This document shows, piece after piece, positions 6,970 to 61,702 of a stretch of DNA of 64,000 nucleotides. Location: contig NC_042998.1 of the NCBI RefSeq assembly GCF_006345805.1, positions 19,592,001-19,656,000 of the forward strand, read 5' to 3'. The notes beneath the pieces are model-generated. The model was not told the DNA's origin. It saw only the letters and a program-made list of their open reading frames with translations, and searched no databases. The first letter of the stretch is position 1. Each line of letters opens with the position of its first letter. This DNA comes from Octopus sinensis (taxonomy: Eukaryota). The position numbers were made by a program, and so were the translations under genes.

Positions 6970-7140
6970 GCTAGCCACTGCACGTTCTTTATTTTCTCTC
7001 TTTGTTTCTTTCTGTGTTTCTTTCTGTGGAAGAGCGTAGGCTCGAAACGTTAAAGACTTTTTTACTTCCCGTGCGTTACACTAATATATCTGTTTGTTGT
7101 CTAAACCACCTGTCTTCGTCTTTTTTTTGTGAATTCTCCC

Positions 7141-7142
<2 letters not shown>
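6970..7142 (+). mobile_element. Penelope-like element 3' end/pLTR fragment carrying HHR H2, between (TA)n tracts
   Basis: Homologous to 53045-53231, which follows a GIY-YIG-like fragment. A shorter 3' piece lies at 25380-25456. Confidence 0.7.
7019..7056 (+). ncRNA. Minimal type-I hammerhead ribozyme, A6U core variant (family H2)
   Basis: UCUUU-CUGUGGA-A-GAGC(GUAG)GCUC-GAAA-CG-UU-AAAGA. Helix I UCUUU/AAAGA, helix II GAGC/GCUC, palindromic helix III ACGU. Confidence 0.75.
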
Positions 7143-7172
<30 letters not shown>

Positions 7173-11006: not shown

Positions 11007-11659
11007 AGTTTATAATGATAATTTTATCATTTCAGAAGTTATTACTAATGCTTTATTGTATACGCACAAGTCGACAATATTTGGAAAGGCAACAGACTCC
11101 GATGCAAATGAACTGGGAATGTATTTCCTCACACTCGGAAGAATAATAGGGGTCACCGGAGACTGAATGTTAAGAACGCATACAACCTGTTTAAAATCAA
11201 TAAAATATTTTCCCGAAGCTCTAAAGACTCTAGCAATCAACCGTCCAAGAAGTAATAGATAAGATCAAGTAGCTGTGTGTAAATGCGGAGTAATCACAAT
11301 CAATACATTACCTGACAAATGGAAGCAACCTTGAACCTCGATTATCAACACAAGAGCGTTGGATCCCAGATGATAAAATAATGGAACTAAGAACTTTAAA
11401 CCATTTCGTCGCACGTTTTACTCTTTCTTGTCATTTTGTGGGTTGAATTGATTGTGGTATTGACACGTTATTGTTGAATAAGATTAAAAGTAATTGTCAG
11501 GAGTATTAAGAAAGGTCAAATCAAAATTTCAAACCAAAAAGAGAAAAGAGGGAATATTTTCTTGTATAGGCTCAAGGCATGAAAATTTATGGGCGGAGTT
11601 GGGGTGGGGGAGGGGTAGTTGCTTTCGGGGTAGTTGCTTTCATCTGGGTTCAGTGTTCC

Positions 11660-11690
<31 letters not shown>

Positions 11691-12541
11691 AATAAAAATA
11701 TAAATTTTAATATAAATAATAATAATGATAACAATGATAATAATAAAAATATAAATTTTAATATAAATAATAATAATAATAATAATGATAATAATAAAAA
11801 TATAGATTTTAATATAAATAATAATAATAATAATAATGATAATAATAAAAATATAAATTTTAATATAAATAATAATAATGATAATAATGATAATAATAAA
11901 AATATAGATTTTAATATAAATAATAATAATAATAATAATGATAATAATAAATATATAAATTTTAATATAAATGATAATAATAATAATAATAATAAAAATA
12001 TAGATTTTAATATAAATAATAATAATAATAATAATGATAATAATAAATATATAAATTTTAATATAAATGATAATAATAATAATAATGATAATAATAAAAA
12101 TATAGATTTTAATATAAATGATAATAATAATAATAATGATAATAATAAATATATAAATTTTAATATAAATAATAATAATAATAATAATGATAATAATAAA
12201 AATATAGATTTTAATATAAATAATAATAATAATAATAATGATAATAATAAATATATAAATTTTAATATAAATGATAATAATAATAATGATAATAATAAAA
12301 ATATAGATTTTAATATAAATGATAATAATAATAACAATGATCATAATAAAAATATAAATTTTAATATAAATAATAATAATAATAATGATAATAATAAATA
12401 TATAAATTTTAATATAAATAATAATAATAATAATAATGATAATAATAAAAATATAAATTTTAATATAAATAATAATAATAATGATAATAATAAATATATA
12501 AATTTTAATATAAATAATAATAATAATAATAATAGTAATAA
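11660..12541. repeat. AT-rich minisatellite, about 20 units of 39-45 bp
   Basis: Unit (aat)n-gat-aataataaa(a/t)atata(a/g)attttaatataaat. Unit lengths vary in steps of 3 nt. Confidence 0.95.
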
Positions 12542-12969
12542 CACATGTTAATGCAACTACATTGTGGTGTTGCCTATGATGGATATGATGATGTGAAGAA
12601 GACGGGGAGGAGGAGGGGGAGAAGAGGGAGGAGAAGGAGGTGATGGCGATGATGATGATGATGATGATGATGACGGCGTGGATCATAAAGATAGTGGTAA
12701 TTATTAGCCGGCGGCCAAGATGGCGATTGCGTTGATGATGAAGCCGGTCGTGTTGTAAGCAATTAATATTAGGCCGCACGTCGTAATAAGTATTAAAGAT
12801 TATCAATATTCTGTTAGATTTGTAATTTTCGAATGTCGCTTAGCGAGGGAAGGAGTGAGGGAAGCGCTTTCAATAATTGATGAATATATGAATTAATAAT
12901 TCGCTGTGATTTGCTGGAATTCATGAGTGGTTCGATAAGGAAATGCATGGTTCCCAAATAGTTGCATAA

Positions 12970-13788: not shown

Positions 13789-13942
13789 TAATAACATCGA
13801 AATACACATTCGGAATGAGAATCCTGATGAAGGCTCTAGGGTATATCAGCCGAAAGGTTCTGTTAACAACGAACAAAATGAGAACAAATATCACCAAATA
13901 TAAATAATGTACATAATTCCTCATTTTTTAAAAATATAGAAC
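13471..13942 (+). mobile_element. tRNA-headed, HHR-bearing short retroelement (H1) with an inverted partial copy at its 5' end
   Basis: A-box-like TGGCGTTGTTG at 13596-13606 and B-box-like AGTTCAATTCC at 13640-13650, then (AAT/AAC)n, then a body with CTGATGA..GAAA (13824-13855) and a tail shared with 2280-2423. 13471-13588 is the reverse complement of the HHR/tail region. Confidence 0.65.
13530..13575 (-). ncRNA. Minimal type-I hammerhead ribozyme (family H1)
   Basis: Minus strand GACAC-CUGAUGA-AA-GCUGG(AUGGUAUA)UCAGC-C-GAAA-CG-UU-GUGUU. Confidence 0.75.
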
Positions 13943-14289
13943 TAGAAAGGGAAATACAAACGATGTGGCATCTTAAAGCGAGAACTGTTCCTGGTACTGT
14001 GGGTGCCCTTGGTAGGATGCAAAATGAATGTCAGAAATATCTAGATACTATCCCAGGAGAACCATGTCTCAGAGAAATCGAAAAGATTTTGCTGACAAGT
14101 CCTGCCCACATCCTTATAAAAACCCTATGAATTTAAATGTATGTGATATATTACGTGAAGATATTTCACTTCTGCCCATGTCACTTCTCCTCCCTAAGCT
14201 TTCAGTCATACTGTAAAATCACTTATCCTTCATTTTCCCTAAGACACTGGTTGTTTCTGGACAAGTGATTGTAATAAACAAGCAGATTA

Positions 14290-19648: not shown

Positions 19649-20750
19649 CTTATTTAAACTTACTCATAAAACTAAACATGAAACTGAATACTAAATCATA
19701 AATTATAACCGTAGACCTAAATTAAACCTCTGCACCCTGATCCCAATCCATAAACCTAAAGCCTAAAATCCTGTCCATTTTTTCAAATTCGTTTTCAAAA
19801 ACTGAGCAGTTCTAATCAAGTATTATAGAGTGGAAAGCCATCTTTTCAATTTCCCCGTTTTCAGGAATTAATTTCTTTAAAATTTTCCAAAATAACATTA
19901 ATTATATTTTGTTCTGCTAGCAAATGTATACGGTTATTCATCATAATTATATCTTTCTTGATTAAATGTTCGACAATGCCTCCGACTGGTTACGTGTCAC
20001 GACTGATTTTTTTATTACCCACGTGGGGCTACACAGAATGGACAGTACAAACATTGAGGACACAAAACATCACAATTACATATATATGGGTAAAATGAGT
20101 TAATGAAAATGATATATGAAAGTGGTGCTAACGGCCCCATCCGCTAGCTATTACGTGTCACGACTGGGCGAACGATGCAGTTTTAAACAGATACTGAAAA
20201 ATTAGTTATACAAACGCTAATAAATACGAGCGTAAATTTTATTCTAATCTTACTGGTGCACGCATGCTCATTAATGAATACATTTGAATAGAAAATTCTC
20301 TTTTAGCTCCCTGGTGAATTACTTAGATTAGAAAGGCATAAACACCCCATAAATAAAAACAAAACTTGCAGCAGTCTATTAAGAAATTAAATAATAGTAA
20401 GACTAATTAAGTAATAGTATGACCATCCTTTTAAGATAATTTTCCTACAATGACACGGAATCATTTAATGTAAGTGATGAGTTTATTCGATCGGCAGAAA
20501 GTATGTCGTCTACCTTAGAGCGGTGTCTCGACAGAATCTTTTGATCGTAAGATGAAGAAAAGCATTGCGAGTTATATTCTAGATTTTTTTTTATATTCTA
20601 ATTTCAAATCAAGATGTGTTTAATATTGCCTTTCGTGCCTACAAGGACGGTGTCACATTTACAAGTGAAACACTGGGTTGACAGAACCAATAGATCGCTG
20701 ACACAAATGATTTGACGCCATCAGTCTTTCACATTTCTACGGGATCGATA

Positions 20751-21466
20751 TACAGGTTCCGAAAGTATTGTTAACTCCTAAATATTGTTTATTATCGCCT
20801 TTATTATCACTATTCTTTGTTTTAGCATCCCCCACCTCACATGTAATGATTTGGGCTGCCGTATCGAGTAAGCAGCTGATAGGACCCTATTTCTTCGAGG
20901 GCATTATTAACCAGCAATCTTACTTAGCCATGTTAAGAGAGTGGTTTGTTCCACAGCTCCTGAAGTTGAATGTTGACCGGAATGATTGTTGGTTTAAATA
21001 AGATGGTGCCCCACCTCACTATGCTATCAATCTCCGGGAATACCTAAATGAAGCTTTTAGGGATAGATGGATAGTGCGCGGATGGCAACAACTTCCAGCA
21101 ACTATCGACTGGCCTCTCAGAAGTCCAGATCTCACGTCTTGAGATAACACTCTGTGGGGTATTTTCAAGGAGAGAGTTTCACATGAACAACACCAGAATA
21201 CCCATCAGTTGAAGGATGCCGTTCGAAGAGCCATTGTAACAATCACCAAAGTACAGCTTCGAAAAATATCACACTGGACATGGCGCCGCATCATTTTGTA
21301 TCACGAAAATGATGGTGTTTATATAGACCTTCTCGATGTGTGACAGCGTCAATGAAAGTGAATAAAATAAAATCAAGTTCGTGTTTTGGATTACTGCATC
21401 ACTTGTTCTTCTATTGTTCTCATTACATTTTGGTAGGGGTTAACAAAATTTTCGAAACACCCTGTA
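20751..21466 (+). mobile_element. Internally deleted Tc1/mariner element, rosa/DD41D-like, pseudogenised
   Basis: TA-flanked TIRs (tacagg..ttccgaaagtattgttaac / gttaacaaaattttcgaaacaccctgta). Translation VMIWAAV..IGPYFF..*DGAPPHY..WPLRSPDLTS*DNTLWG. Confidence 0.9.
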
Positions 21467-25324: not shown

Positions 25325-25381
<57 letters not shown>

Positions 25382-26599
25382 GAACGTCAAATTAATACAC
25401 CTGTCTGTTTTTTACACACCTGTCTTTATCATTTGTCTTTTTGTAAATTCCAACTATATATATGATATATATATATATATATATATATATAGTGTGTGTG
25501 TGTGTGTGTGTGCGTATGTGTGTATATAGATGCATATGTATTGTCGTCCAAACTGGAAGTGAGCACTGGCATGCTTGGGCAATTGTGAAGGTCTTTTCGT
25601 AGGAAACCATTCATTGTTTTGTTGACCCACAAGTAATGAATGTTCACTCGGCAATGCGGTGTTAAGCGCACGTTTTCACTGCCCGATATCATCGCATACA
25701 TATAATTGCATGCATATAATTGCCTATATGTGTGTCTGTGTGCTTGTGTGTGGATGCGTGTGTAAGTATCTATGTATAAGTGTTCTTTTTCTGAAATTAA
25801 TATTTTGTTAGCTTAAAAGTAATTAAAGTCTATTAAATACCTGTTATTACTTTGTATATGGAATTCAGCTTGTGTATGAATTTCGCCTTTATGATTCTGA
25901 GTAGATTATGCATTTAACATCGCTGGCAGACAGCTTCACTTTCCTTCTAGTTTTCCATTTCACCGTTCTTCAACTTACTCGAATGAGAGGCATAAGATGA
26001 AAATACATATCGTGTAAATATAACCACTTCGCTTAGTTAAAAACTTTGACACATACGAAATTGATGTAAGTTCAACACAACTGTGTAATGGGATTTCTGT
26101 TGACGTACGTATTTATTGTTAAAATATCAACAGTTTTGCATGTAACAATAATAAGCGTTGGTGTATTTCGATTTCGAAGAACACCTTCTTTTACAAATAT
26201 GTTCATAATACCCTCGACTGGAATAATTGTGTTCTGACTGTCTTGTGTATCTTCAGTTAAATACACAGCTAGATCGATGAATCCAAACAATTCTATGGTG
26301 AACAGACATCGTCTAAATAGAGAAGTCGCTCGCGAAAACGTTATATAAGTGTGATTCTTATGCTCTCATTTAAATGCCGTAGCTTATTCCGAATAAATAA
26401 CTGTGTCATCGTTTCTATTCTCAGTGTTTTCCGTGCAAATGTTATTTTACTCACGGAATGGTAGACATCAACACATAACACCACAGTTCATTTGCTGAAC
26501 TGTATTGCGTCATTTACCCAGTGTCTTGCATAAGTCATCAAATATGTGTGTCTGTGTGTGTGTTTGTCTTCAAATATGTTTGTGTGCATGTGTTTGTAT

Positions 26600-37103: not shown

Positions 37104-37583
37104 TTAACAATTAAGGATAACTTCTTAATAAGGAATCTTAACAAGAAATTATCAGGTAGATAGCGTGAAAAACCTCATAAGAGAAAAATTTCGAAAATAA
37201 TTCTTTCTTATTGAACATATTAATTTATATATAGAGGGCATTATTACACATACATGCCACACGCTAAGAGGGACATTAGTCATTTCTACCAAAAAATTTT
37301 ACTAATCATACCCAATGCAATTTTTTCAAAGCCAGACATTTAAAAAATGAATTTAGTCTTGTATCACCTGTGATTTCGTACTTACCGCAGTTGCGACCGT
37401 ACTCATCAGCAAGACTGATTCTGAACATATCATAAATAAACGACCTCGCACCGTCAAAGCCGAACAGCTATCTGCTCGACTCCAACGAAGCACATGGGGA
37501 AGTTTACATATAATACATCCGGTAGATGTAAGAATTATTAGCGTGTGGCATGTATGTGTAATAATGCCCTCTATATATAAATA

Positions 37584-37634: not shown

Positions 37635-38850
37635 ATAATTTGAGGATATACCTTTTTTGGGTCATTGCTGCATTTTTTGCTAACTCTGCATAATCTTTGA
37701 TTCAGAAAATAATAATGGCAGACCCCATAGCTTACTCAAGAAATGAAGGGGCATGCTGTTATTCTGGTTATAAAGGCTGGGCATACCGATTTAAAAATAT
37801 CTCGATTTTTAAAAGTTACTAGATCTTTAGTCTACAAAGTGTGTAATGAGCTAGAGACTGAATATGGAAACGTATCGCCAGTATCAAAACATAAAAAAAC
37901 ACTGTAAATCCCTGAAATCATCAGAACACCTGAATTTATCCAGCAAGTTTAACAGACCATTATTTACAATCCTAGAAATCCATAAGGTCAATTGCAAAAG
38001 ATCTCCATGTGTCATAAATGACAGTCAGAAATGTTGCCCGCGAAGACATCAGGTATGAGTCTTATATGATAAACAAAGATCAATTTGTCAGAGAAAGCAA
38101 ATGAAAATCACTACATCAAATCTAAAAGGATCTTAAACAAACTGAAAAATCCAGCAGATTTAACTTCGACCAAGTTCAAAAGGTTACCCAAAAAAATGAC
38201 AAATGGCTACGTGCATACCCTCCTGGGGTTCCAAGTGTTATGCATACAAAAGGTCCTGCAACTGTCATGGTTCTAGGGGCTTTCAGCAATGAAGGACATG
38301 TGATGTCTCCTTACTTCTTTCCACAAAGCCTTAGAGTTAACACTGCCGCCTCGGTCTAGGTCCTGGAAATAATTGTAAATCCCTAGATAGACAGTGCATG
38401 CAATGAAAGGCCATATCTGTTTCAGTAAGACTGTGCACTATTATACATGGCTCTACAAACACAGGAATGGATGGCAGTAAATGTTCATGTTCACATAACC
38501 CCTAACATTTGAGGTCCTAATTCCCCAGATCTCAATCCCTGGGATTATTACATATGGAGAATTGTTGAGAGAGAAGACAATGAACGCGCCCATAACACCA
38601 AAGATACTTTGAAAGCTGCCATAGTCAGAGTGATGACGAAAATAAACCAGGAATACTTAATACGAGGATGAAGGCGGTTTAGATCTCATATACAAGCAGT
38701 TATTGAAGCTGAAGATGGCTTTATTAAATAACTTTATAGAAAAGAAGATATATTTTTATCGTCGTACCATTTTTTGATAAATAGAGTTATCTTCTTATAT
38801 GTCTTTTTTATAAACATATATAGGTCCTCAAATATCTTACGCACCCTGTA
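37635..38850 (+). mobile_element. Decayed Tc1/mariner element, maT/DD37D-like
   Basis: VMVLGAFSNEGHVM..PYLFQ*DCA..PNSPDLNPWDYYIW..AVIEAEDGFI. 3' TIR cctcaaatatcttacgcaccctgta. Confidence 0.88.
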
Positions 38851-50920: not shown

Positions 50921-52647
50921 AAACAATCTACTCAACTACTCTCTTCTCCAAAGTTTCGAATCTTGTGCCTTTAGTAGAAAGGATTATTCTATTGATATTC
51001 TCTTTGAAGAACCACTGGAATACGGGACACCACTTCTGAAGCGGTAATGACTCACACACACACACAAACTAACACACCTACAAGTTTATCTATTTAACTA
51101 TCTGTCTATCTATCTGTTTGTTTATCTATCTATTTATTTATCTATTTATCTATCTATCTATTTTTACACACACATATGTGTGTGCGTAAAAATAGATAGA
51201 TAGATATGTAAGCGGATAACGTCCAAGCACGCTATTATAATCCAAATGATGGCTGCCTTGAATAGTATAGAAATTCCGGGTAAAACAATCCCAATGTATT
51301 TCATCGTTTGGGTCAATCTTGGATTCGCTTCTTTAGATTATGAATAGATTACTGATTGTATATCTAGGACAATTCAATGAACAAGGGGAACAATAAAATG
51401 TACAATGTCAGAGGGAAAATATAGCGTACTGGCATGTGATTACGTCTGAAAACATTTTACTATTTATAGTGGAGCATACTCGACCTGATTCAAGGCGTGT
51501 AGCTAATCATCCTAGCTTCATTCAGGGATAGAGAGAAAATCCATAGCACAAGCGTCAATGGGTTTATTTGATATCTGATACAGAATGGGAAATATTAACT
51601 CTGATACAGAATGGGAAACCATAGACGGAGCAAGGCCTTACGCAATCGGAAGTAATATATACAATTTATGCTTATACGAAATGTTCCATATGTTCACGTA
51701 AAAATTCCAGTTATAAATAACAATAAGGGATCAACCCCAAAATGCTTGCACATTCACAGAAAAATAGACATTCAAATATTCCCCTTGATAAAAAGTGCCC
51801 GAGGTTACACGGTAAATATTAGTTCAATATTTTGCGCATTTTCTGGTGGTAATGCTTTTCCAAATAATTAGTATTCTTTGTATATAATATTTCATCGACG
51901 GAATATTCATTGACAACAATCAGCAAATATGCATTACTTGATTATGAATGTGGGAACAGATGGGATGATATTTTTCCAGTAGATAAATTCTGTAGGTTCA
52001 CATGACACTCAGAGTGAACACCATGAACGTTTCTTTCCATTTCAATTGAGACGAAATAGTGTGTTGCACACAACGGGCAACTATAGTACAAAATAACGCA
52101 TGTAAAACTATTTTGCTAATAGAGCGAATCAAGCTGGACAACAGGTGAGCGCATAATTTGTCGAATACATTTATAGGGTCTAAGTAGTCATAAAATTTTA
52201 ATGTTATTAGTGTGTAAAATACGCAAACAATTTTGCCCCCTTGAGGCATTTGCTTGCATAATGTCTTCTGTGAGTATTGTGTACACCAGATCGATAAACA
52301 TAGCATCAGACCATTACCGGATTTAGCTATTACATGTTCAAAAGTTGGGAAACAGTTAACAAAAATCTGTGCATATAGATTTTTCACAAGGAAATTGAGA
52401 GACCTATATGTCGCCTTACGAATATATGAATGTTTGCTGAAGAATAAATGCTAAGATGAACGTCCGCACAGCGCCTCATAATTCTTTCGGGGCTATAGAA
52501 TACTCTACAAAATGAAACTTTTCTCACTGAGACTAAGTCAAGAACCTCACAACAAAATTATTTAGGCACAGGTCTGAAGACAGCTAGTGTTCAAGCCTTT
52601 CAACCAAAACACAATTCATCTAGTAGTAGTAGTAGCGTTATTAACTC

Positions 52648-52769
52648 TGCGAGCTGGCAGAATCGTTAGCATGCCGGGAGAAATGCTTAGCGGTATTTCG
52701 TCTGCCGCTACGGTCTGAGTTCAAATTCCGCCGAGTCCGACTTTGCTTTCATACTTTCGGGCGCGATAA

Positions 52770-52771
<2 letters not shown>
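52648..52771 (+). mobile_element. SINE family A, 3'-truncated
   Basis: gcgagctggcagaatcgttagc..gagttcaaattccgccgag. Confidence 0.85.
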
Positions 52772-52805
<34 letters not shown>

Positions 52806-52889
52806 TTATATATGTAAATATATGCATACATGCTTCTCTGCGTATTTGCGCATATGTGTACGGCCAGAAGCTGCTGTGAATGGTTCAAA

Positions 52890-53231
52890 TTTGCCGGACG
52901 CAGCGTGGTTGACCGGTTAGCGGCACACCTCCAAGACCTCAGACTCGGCAGCGACACTCCAGTCTCGCACCATCTCCGCTCTTCCGGTCAGTTTTTACAT
53001 TATCTCCCCTTCTTCCTAGTCTCCTGTGTGACACCTCTGTCCGGCATCCACTAAACCTTTTTTTTATTATTTTCTCTCCCTATTTATTTTTAGGTTCCTT
53101 TCTGTTGAAGAGCGTAGGCTCGAAACGTAAAAGACACTCACTACCCGAGCGTTAAACTAATACATCTGTTTGTTGTTTTACACACCCGACTTCATCTTGC
53201 ATTCTTTTTTTTTTTGTGAATTCTCACTATA
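52890..53231 (+). mobile_element. Penelope-like element 3' fragment: GIY-YIG endonuclease remnant plus 3' region with HHR
   Basis: Translation GRSVVDRLAAHLQDLRLGSDTPVSHHLRSSG matches the PLE GIY-YIG pattern (G.T.R.L..R..EH...I.....PV..HF). HHR H2 lies about 110 nt downstream. Confidence 0.75.
53098..53133 (+). ncRNA. Minimal type-I hammerhead ribozyme, A6U core variant (family H2)
   Basis: CUUU-CUGUUGA-A-GAGC(GUAG)GCUC-GAAA-CG-UA-AAAG. Confidence 0.75.
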
Positions 53232-53233
53232 TT

Positions 53234-53587: not shown

Positions 53588-53846
53588 TAAGAAGCCCGTC
53601 GTATATATGTATATATATGTATGCGTGTGTGTGTTTGTGTGTCTGTGTTTGTCCCCCTAGCATTGCTTGACAACCGATGCTGGTGTTTTTATGTCCCCGT
53701 TACTTAGCGGTTCAGCAGAAGAAACCGATAGAATAAGTACTGGGCTTACAAAAGAATAAGTCCCGGGGTCGAGTTGCTCGGTTAAAGGCGGTGCTCCAGC
53801 ATGGCCGCAGTCAAATGACTGAAGCAAGTAAAAGAGTAAAAGAGTA
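53588..53846 (+). mobile_element. SINE family B, 3' half
   Basis: agaagcccgtcgtatata..gactgaagcaagtaaaagag. Confidence 0.88.
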
Positions 53847-60739: not shown

Positions 60740-61330
60740 AACCTCTATATGATACATCTAACTGGTTTGCAGAATGCAACCCTGACTTGAAGGCAATTTG
60801 GAAGTTGGCTCTGCAATAAACTTTTGTAGTAAACTGAGCAAAATTGTAAAGACATTTGTGTAAATTTTCAGACTGCTTAGGGATGAGCTGAGCTTCTGGT
60901 TTTCGTTGGTAAAAGCGACCAGGCAGACCAAACTCACTCATGATGATGCCCTCTTTCGACAGCAATAACACAATCTACATCTACTGCTTTCCCACTGGTT
61001 TGACGGTCAACAAAGTGTACATACTGGAGGTTTCTAAAGGGAGAGGTTTAGTCGCAGATGCCCAGAGCATTTGTAGCAGGACAAATTTCCCTACGATTTC
61101 ATTCAAGTATCCAAATGGGTATAGAATCCATCCTTCACCAAACCTATTGCCCAGACCTTGCTCCCTGTAACATTTGGTTGTTCCCCAAGATGAAAGAGAT
61201 GAAGGAACCGGTGAAAATTTTCAGGGACAACTTTACTTTGGATAATCTCCATGAGGCTTTCATGAAGTGGTTGGAGCGCCACAACAATTCTGCTTTGAAC
61301 GAGTATTGCGAGCTAACGTTTCTGCTAACA
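60740..61330 (+). mobile_element. Decayed mariner transposase fragment
   Basis: GLTVNKVY and HQTYCPDLAPCNIWLFPKMKE (YSPDLAP motif). Confidence 0.8.
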
Positions 61331-61702
61331 CACTGCGATAATATGTAAACATTCATTTTAGTAATATATTTTTATCTTAACATTATTGCTTGGGACGTTA
61401 CTTCCTATTTAATTCTTCACTTTCTGACTTTAAATGTTATGACATTTCACCTCATAACTTTTTGTATTAATTTTTGTTCAATGCAACCAACGATTCTGAA
61501 TTCCCTATGCATTTTTCTATGATTTAAGTCTACAAAAGGTATATTTTTATTTTAAAATATAAAAAATAAATGTCAATTGAAGATGACAATTTATGACAAA
61601 ATGTAGCAGAAGAGGTTTCCTCTTCAAAAGTGTTAACAGTTTGCAATTTAATTGAGAACTGAATTAGTTGTGAAGCTTGGAAGCTCCCGCTATTGACGAA
61701 TA

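What the first reader, a model, noticed from the sequence alone, without database searches (positions are those of the whole stretch)
52890..53231. A6U hammerhead variant directly linked to a PLE GIY-YIG fragment
Seen: both H2 copies (7024 CUGUGGA, 53102 CUGUUGA) have U at the normally invariant A6 plus an extra A before helix II. This copy lies just 3' of a GIY-YIG-like reading frame. It is the in-window link between the HHRs and an autonomous Penelope-like element. The shared A6U suggests a family trait rather than decay.
Basis: partly seen in the sequence, partly recalled or inferred. Interest (0 to 1): 0.7.

Follow-up and report, generated by a model that had tools for sequence, protein, structure and literature searches.

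The report
Penelope relic with U6 hammerhead core
A short remnant of a likely Penelope-type jumping gene carries a hammerhead-ribozyme sequence with U instead of the usual A at core position 6, as does a second copy in the window; the change is likely inherited and likely weakens self-cutting, which makes it a modest new variant of a well-known pairing.

Summary
The RNA observation is right. Copies at 53102 and 7024 both fit a minimal type I hammerhead, with U at position 6 and an extra A before helix II. The descriptor found 2 matches in the window and 0 in 300 shuffles. The extra base is not unusual: it is the published consensus of Penelope-like (PLE) hammerheads (PMC4209133). The upstream 52-codon frame has the Arg...His...His spacing of the second half of a PLE GIY-YIG domain, closest by eye to Neptune. 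It got no profile or database hit, lacks the GIY/YIG half, and has lost the conserved Glu and last His. No reverse-transcriptase motif was found. So this is a 5'-truncated relic, not a link to an autonomous element. U6 is probably inherited (my estimate about 0.7), but n = 2 and no further genomic copies could be fetched. Published data say A6 changes cut activity and that PLE transposition in vitro does not need cleavage. The best reading is a weakened or dead ribozyme carried along by its family. I found no report of natural A6U, but could not read the largest survey (Lünse 2017). New variant of a known kind; interest 0.3.

The parts
52896..53054 (+). Decayed C-terminal half of a likely PLE GIY-YIG endonuclease frame (52 codons plus TAA). 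Arg at 52899 and 52914, His at 52926 and 52971; Ala in place of the conserved Glu (52923) and Gln in place of the last His (52989). True 5' end of the insertion uncertain (about 52860-52896).
   Evidence: Translation; motif test; by-eye comparison with the published PLE endonuclease alignment (PMC8557442 Figs S2, S7). No profile hit.
53055..53097 (+). Pyrimidine-rich stretch between the stop codon and the ribozyme, likely 3' UTR; its last part aligns with the 7024 copy
   Evidence: Sequence; alignment; 23 of 31 columns identical to the 7024 copy
53098..53133 (+). Minimal type I hammerhead motif: helix I 53098-53101 with 53130-53133; core 53102-53108; extra A 53109; helix II 53110-53121; G12-A14 53122-53124; palindromic helix III half 53125-53128; A17 at 53129
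53105..53105 (+). U at hammerhead core position 6 (consensus A)
53134..53232 (+). 3' tail shared by all three copies of the repeat family in the window
   Evidence: BLAST; alignment; nhmmer
6989..7145 (+). Second, shorter copy: UTR end, hammerhead (C3 7024, U6 7027, G7, U17) and tail, between TA tracts; no endonuclease sequence
25379..25459 (+). Third copy, tail only, truncated 3' of the ribozyme, TA tracts on both sides; says nothing about position 6

Best explanation
This is likely the 5'-truncated 3' end of a Penelope-like retroelement, probably Neptune-type, whose minimal hammerhead has U at core position 6, a change likely inherited from a source element and likely leaving the ribozyme weak or inactive. 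Shown: the motif, its U6 in 2 of 2 ribozyme-bearing copies, the shared tail in 3 copies, the TA-tract context of two copies, and a decayed frame ending 48 nt upstream. Inferred: the copies arose by target-primed reverse transcription from the 3' end that stopped at different points (about 80, 160 and 340 nt). A normal ribozyme of this kind would cleave after position 17 only as a dimer paired through the palindromic helix III. U6 would lose A6's contacts in the uridine turn and is predicted to let U4-G5-U6 pair with positions 15.1-16.2, zipping the monomer into a rod. The family could still spread because cleavage is dispensable for PLE insertion in vitro, with the stem structure possibly kept for protein binding.
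For: Anatomy matches the published PLE min-hammerhead consensus in all but position 6 (PMC4209133). The frame matches the Arg/His/His spacing of Neptune and Naiad endonucleases by eye. A loose pattern occurs 0.24 times per shuffled window, so about 0.001 for lying within 300 nt upstream of either ribozyme. An endonuclease directly 5' of a ribozyme fits C-terminal-endonuclease clades, not Naiad. TA-tract insertion is reported for Neptune (PMC8557442). Two independent A-to-T hits at this site have probability 1.6e-4 to 2.5e-3 under the divergences tried. All single mutants in the CUGA turn had low activity in one deep scan (PMC9901934). Natural A6C is slow in Mg2+ (PMC3088659; PMC7151607). Ribozyme-dead mutants of an Anolis PLE still inserted in vitro (PMC11167929). 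Predicted G5:C15.2 pairing rises from 0.06 to 0.95 and from 0.01 to 0.58 when A6 becomes U6.
Against: Only two copies inform position 6. The posterior for inheritance was 0.07-0.88 over 12 parameter sets, below 0.5 in 6 of them. The peptide had no true hit in any library, so the Neptune label rests on a by-eye match. The block is better conserved than its flanks (Fisher p 0.04 against both flanks, 0.09 against the tail alone), which hints at selection and is not required by a dead ribozyme. The folding effect is uneven: the open-core fraction falls 0.118 to 0.007 in one copy but only 0.11 to 0.061 in the other, and C6 or G6 lower it too. The dimer calculation gave opposite signs in the two copies. 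The scan cited used a type III ribozyme without protein; no A6U rate was seen for a PLE ribozyme.
Confidence: 0.58

Rival explanations
1. U6 is a selected, working variant. The dimer cleaves in vivo with help from the element's own protein or from Mn2+, and the U6 rod keeps monomers switched off.
For: 36 of 38 columns are identical across the ribozyme block, and the two differences fall on the free positions 7 and 17. Natural A6C keeps good activity in Mn2+ (PMC7151607). An Anolis PLE ribozyme cleaves only with its protein present (PMC11167929). The rod fold is predicted in both copies.
Against: The conservation signal is marginal (p 0.04-0.09). No compensatory change is seen elsewhere in the core. 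No double mutant rescued the CUGA turn except the C3-G8 swap (PMC9901934). All 56 published PLE representatives have A6, though their descriptor fixed it.
Confidence: 0.17
2. The family has an ordinary A6 ribozyme and the two copies hit U6 independently, or share it through one minor dead sub-lineage.
For: The copies are old or divergent (15 of 86 tail columns differ). A shared hit at any of 13 core sites has probability 0.006-0.09. The conserved residues of the upstream frame are also decayed. The 4 other hammerhead-like motifs in the window all keep A6.
Against: The change is the same transversion at the same site, in a block with only two other differences. The 53102 copy has only 3 private changes in 81 three-way tail columns.
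Confidence: 0.2
3. The upstream peptide is a chance look-alike or belongs to a different, adjacent insertion, so the ribozyme has no direct endonuclease link here.
For: There is no database or profile support. The strict pattern with Glu does not match. The patterns were relaxed after seeing the peptide. No second copy of the frame lies in the window.
Against: It is the only match of even the loosest pattern in 64 kb, on the same strand, and it ends 48 nt before the ribozyme, where PLE structure predicts it.
Confidence: 0.07

Closest known systems
Minimal hammerheads (min-HHR) of metazoan Penelope-like elements (Cervera and De la Pena 2014, PMC4209133)
   Same: Type I layout, short helix I, an unpaired base between A9 and G10.1, the G10.1-C11.1 pair, a palindromic loopless helix III, and a position at the 3' end of mostly truncated single copies.
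   Different: U at position 6; all 56 listed representatives have A6, though the search fixed that base. The core variants I saw there affect positions 3 and 8.
Neptune-clade PLEs (Neptune1_Ap, Neptune1_Nv, Penelope1_XT in PMC8557442 Figs S2, S7)
   Same: Arg-x4-Arg-x3-His, then Pro-Val-x-x-His at similar spacing; endonuclease at the 3' end before the ribozyme; TA-tract insertion.
   Different: Only half the domain is present. The conserved Glu and last His are lost, the distance to the C-terminal Gly-[Ile/Leu]-Asn-like motif is about 20 residues short if that motif is real, and there is no RT or linker zinc finger.
Natural A6C hammerhead of phage Bcep176 (PMC3088659, PMC7151607)
   Same: A natural substitution at the same core position.
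   Different: C rather than U; one phage locus rather than a repeat family. Its activity was measured (slow in Mg2+, good in Mn2+); this one is untested.
Stem III-deficient hammerhead variants associated with PLEs (Lunse, Weinberg and Breaker 2017)
   Same: By its title and my recall, the same class of dimer-cleaving small hammerheads.
   Different: The paper is not held; I saw only its citation, so whether it lists U6 cores is unknown.

Membership tests
Hammerhead ribozyme (type I) | Core consensus C3 U4 G5 A6 N7 G8 A9, G12 A13 A14 | tested here: not met
   All positions match except U6 in both copies. It is filed as a variant motif, not a consensus member.
Hammerhead ribozyme (type I) | Helices I and II around the core, A15.1-U16.1, H17 | tested here: met
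   4-bp helix II, 4-5 bp helix I, H17 = A or U
Hammerhead ribozyme (type I) | Match to an Rfam hammerhead model | tested here: not met
   No hammerhead family among the hits. The A6 motifs of the window were also missed, so this says little about U6.
Hammerhead ribozyme (type I) | Self-cleavage after position 17 | not testable with these tools
   Needs an assay; folding calculations were uneven
PLE min-HHR | Unpaired base between A9 and G10.1 | tested here: met
   A at 53109 and 7031; published consensus
PLE min-HHR | Palindromic positions 15.1-16.1 without loop (dimer pairing) | tested here: met
   53125-53128 and 7047-7050 are self-complementary
Penelope-like element (EN+) | GIY-YIG endonuclease domain | tested here: inconclusive
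   Motif-level match to the C-terminal half only; no Pfam, NCBIfam or PHROGs hit; the CDD PLE profile is not available
Penelope-like element (EN+) | Reverse transcriptase in the same ORF | tested here: not met
   The frame starts inside the endonuclease; no Y[IV]DD motif in six frames of the window. This is expected for a 5'-truncated copy, but it rules out 'autonomous' for this locus.
Penelope-like element (EN+) | Pseudo-LTR tandem arrangement | tested here: not met
   Three solo 3' ends, 18-28 kb apart, with no tandem
Neptune clade | RT phylogeny and CX2-5CxxC linker zinc finger | not testable with these tools
   Those parts are absent from the window and no full-length relative could be fetched
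Neptune clade | CCHH zinc finger within the endonuclease | tested here: inconclusive
   The Cys half is absent; first His at 52971, Gln at the expected second His (alignment)

The most novel reading that the evidence does not exclude
An abundant Penelope-like family, probably of an octopus, has fixed a U6 hammerhead core and keeps it under selection: U6 locks monomers into an inactive rod, and dimers cleave only with the element's protein or Mn2+. It would be a natural A6U hammerhead family hidden from all searches that fix A6.
Probability: 0.15. Interest if true: 0.6.

Novelty: new variant of a known kind. Interest (0 to 1): 0.3.

Why it matters
Hammerheads next to PLE endonuclease remnants are common and long known, so the link itself adds little. 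The U6 matters either way. If a successful family carries a dead core, that is genome-scale support for the view that PLE ribozyme cleavage is dispensable, which so far rests on one in vitro system (PMC11167929) and on clades lacking the motif (PMC8557442). If U6 works, the accepted core consensus is too narrow and descriptor searches miss whole families. A tally over one genome plus one cleavage assay would settle which.

Tried and rejected
Peptide searches with no support: Pfam, NCBIfam, PHROGs, PDB sequences (only SufD at E 0.38 and 1.2), ESM Atlas (23, 78; one unnamed cluster at 0.76), the 5.8-billion set in 'longer' and 'near' modes (16, 58), and phage tblastn (one hit at E 6). The search of 1.84 billion representatives gave 2 hits. 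Both were rejected as repeat artefacts: one has a tape-measure Pfam domain, the other no family. Their cluster look-up could not be made. I tried to read position 6 from spurious translations of other copies in the protein set: 0 hits among 12 candidates. A pattern scan of prokaryotic genomes gave 3 GC-rich loci without helix I or the tail, judged chance. Plasmid blastn: no match. The viral and metagenome contig collections stayed unchecked, and no eukaryotic genome collection was available. An alternative register starting at U7 (a U3-type core with A6) was rejected because it destroys helix II, mispairs helix I and does not fit the 7024 copy (sequence). A Naiad origin was rejected because Naiads have the endonuclease at the N-terminus and lack canonical hammerheads. 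The dimer folding calculation was set aside: the energy model did not form helix I in the constrained dimer and the two copies disagreed. Supplement searches for the family's consensus in PMC8557442 and PMC13282606 found none.

Full report
Setting. The window is 27-40% GC in 2-kb bins and rich in microsatellites. Its repeats look to me like those of an octopus genome; that label is recalled and no call established it. PLEs make up 6.83% of Octopus vulgaris in 190 families (PMC13282606 supplement), so such fragments would be expected there.

The ribozyme motif. Numbering shows C3 U4 G5 U6 N7 G8 A9, an extra A, a 4-bp helix II, G12 A13 A14, a self-complementary 4-nt helix III half, H17 and a 4-5 bp helix I. 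A descriptor with positions 6 and 7 free matched these 2 sites and none in 300 shuffles; I wrote it after seeing the motif. Rfam found no hammerhead here, nor at the window's A6 motifs. BLAST and nhmmer found 3 copies of the family at E below 1: two with the ribozyme and one tail-only copy at 25379. So position 6 is U in 2 of 2 informative copies. The 4 other hammerhead-like motifs seen (2322, 13570, 13824, 37409) all have A6.

The extra A. It is ordinary. [quoted passage not shown]

Is U6 inherited? The 38-column ribozyme block differs at 2 columns, positions 7 and 17, both free in the consensus. The tail differs at 15 of 86 and the 5' flank at 8 of 31 ungapped columns; Fisher p is 0.04 against both flanks and 0.09 against the tail. 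Two independent A-to-T changes at this site have probability 1.6e-4 to 2.5e-3, but a shared hit at any core site has 0.006-0.09. The posterior for inheritance ran from 0.07 to 0.88 over 12 settings and was below 0.5 in 6. I put it near 0.7, because the block is less diverged than the rates used and because a source element with a dead core can still spread; that figure is a judgement. Attempts to get more copies failed. The viral and metagenome collections stayed unchecked and no eukaryotic genomes were on hand.

The reading frame. It ends in TAA 48 nt before C3. By eye it follows the published PLE endonuclease alignment: Arg-x4-Arg-x3-His, then Pro-Val-x-x-His 15 residues after the first His, closest to Neptune1_Ap with 8 identities by my count in that stretch (PMC8557442 supplement). 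A relaxed pattern matched once in the window and never in 300 shuffles; a looser one occurs 0.24 times per shuffle, about 0.001 for this position; the strict pattern with Glu did not match. The patterns were relaxed with the peptide in view. Every library search was negative or spurious; a 40-58 residue decayed query has little power, so this neither confirms nor refutes. The GIY and YIG motifs are absent and no RT motif was found in the window by pattern; only 8 of the window's many frames were scanned with Pfam. The copy has only 3 private changes in 81 tail columns yet lacks conserved endonuclease residues, which suggests (inference) that its source was already non-autonomous.

Mechanism. 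The three copies share a 3' end and differ in 5' extent, and two sit between TA tracts, as expected from 5'-truncated target-primed insertion (established PLE biology; TA bias for Neptune in PMC8557442). Minimal PLE hammerheads cleave weakly and as dimers (PMC4209133). In one deep scan all single mutants of the CUGA turn had low activity and only the C3-G8 swap rescued (PMC9901934). Natural A6C is slow in Mg2+ but good in Mn2+ (PMC3088659; PMC7151607). In an Anolis PLE, cleavage needed the protein and was not needed for insertion in vitro (PMC11167929). Folding predicts that U6 pairs the core with positions 15.1-16.2 (G5:C15.2 0.95 and 0.58, against 0.06 and 0.01 with A6), but the loss of open core is large in one copy and small in the other, and the dimer calculation was inconclusive. 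I therefore favour an inherited, weakened or dead ribozyme (0.58) over independent decay (0.20), a working variant (0.17) and a chance peptide (0.07).

Novelty. Searches for 'hammerhead' with 'A6U' gave one paper, where the term refers to twister. A search with U6 core strings listed no relevant paper among the 20 of 39 shown. 'Octopus' with 'hammerhead ribozyme' listed 4 papers, none on this by title and abstract. The supplements of PMC3088659 held no such string, though figures there may be pictures. The largest survey of these variants (Lunse 2017) was not available and may already hold U6 cores; bioRxiv supplements were closed. So absence from print is not established.

What I read. PMC4209133: parts 1-2 of 4 of the text and parts 1-2 of 3 of the supplement PDF. 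PMC8557442: passages, supplement searches and supplement parts 54, 55 and 59 of 59. PMC7151607: parts 1-2 of 4. PMC3088659: passages, section 8 and a supplement search. PMC13282606: passages and a supplement search. Passages only: PMC11167929, PMC9901934, PMC6765202, PMC11014351, PMC11662667 and bioRxiv 10.64898/2026.07.22.740005. Lunse 2017: nothing but the citation.

Verdict. The feature is real. The PLE link and the extra A are known; 'autonomous' is overstated; the shared U6 is the one new point and is unresolved at n = 2. New variant of a known kind, interest 0.3.

Noticed in passing
window 2322 (+), 13570 (-), 13824 (+): A second hammerhead-bearing repeat family, three copies 73-89% alike, all with A6 but decayed elsewhere; the last two lie on opposite strands about 250 bp apart, an arrangement described for PLE remnants.
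   Followed up: partly
window 37230-37575: A unit of about 345 nt with a 38-nt direct repeat at both ends and an A6 hammerhead-like core at 37409 on the minus strand, near TA tracts; may be a small non-autonomous PLE or retrozyme-like element.
   Followed up: partly
window 25379-25459: Tail-only third copy of the studied family with TA tracts on both sides.
   Followed up: yes
window 53025-53051: The last codons of the studied frame resemble the C-terminal end of Neptune endonucleases (compare Penelope1_XT) but sit about 20 residues too early; an in-frame deletion or chance.
   Followed up: partly
window 13882-14127, 20711-20998, 38126-38356, 61052-61345: Frames that look by eye (recalled) like the end of a restriction-endonuclease-type retroelement and like Tc1/mariner transposase pieces; no Pfam or NCBIfam hit below E 0.1.
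   Followed up: partly
window 52640-52805 and 53640-53840: Dispersed repeats followed by ATT or TA tracts that flank the studied locus and resemble octopus SINEs (recalled, not tested).
   Followed up: no
window 11500-12550: A long, very AT-rich tandem array with a period near 51 nt built from AAT-type units.
   Followed up: no
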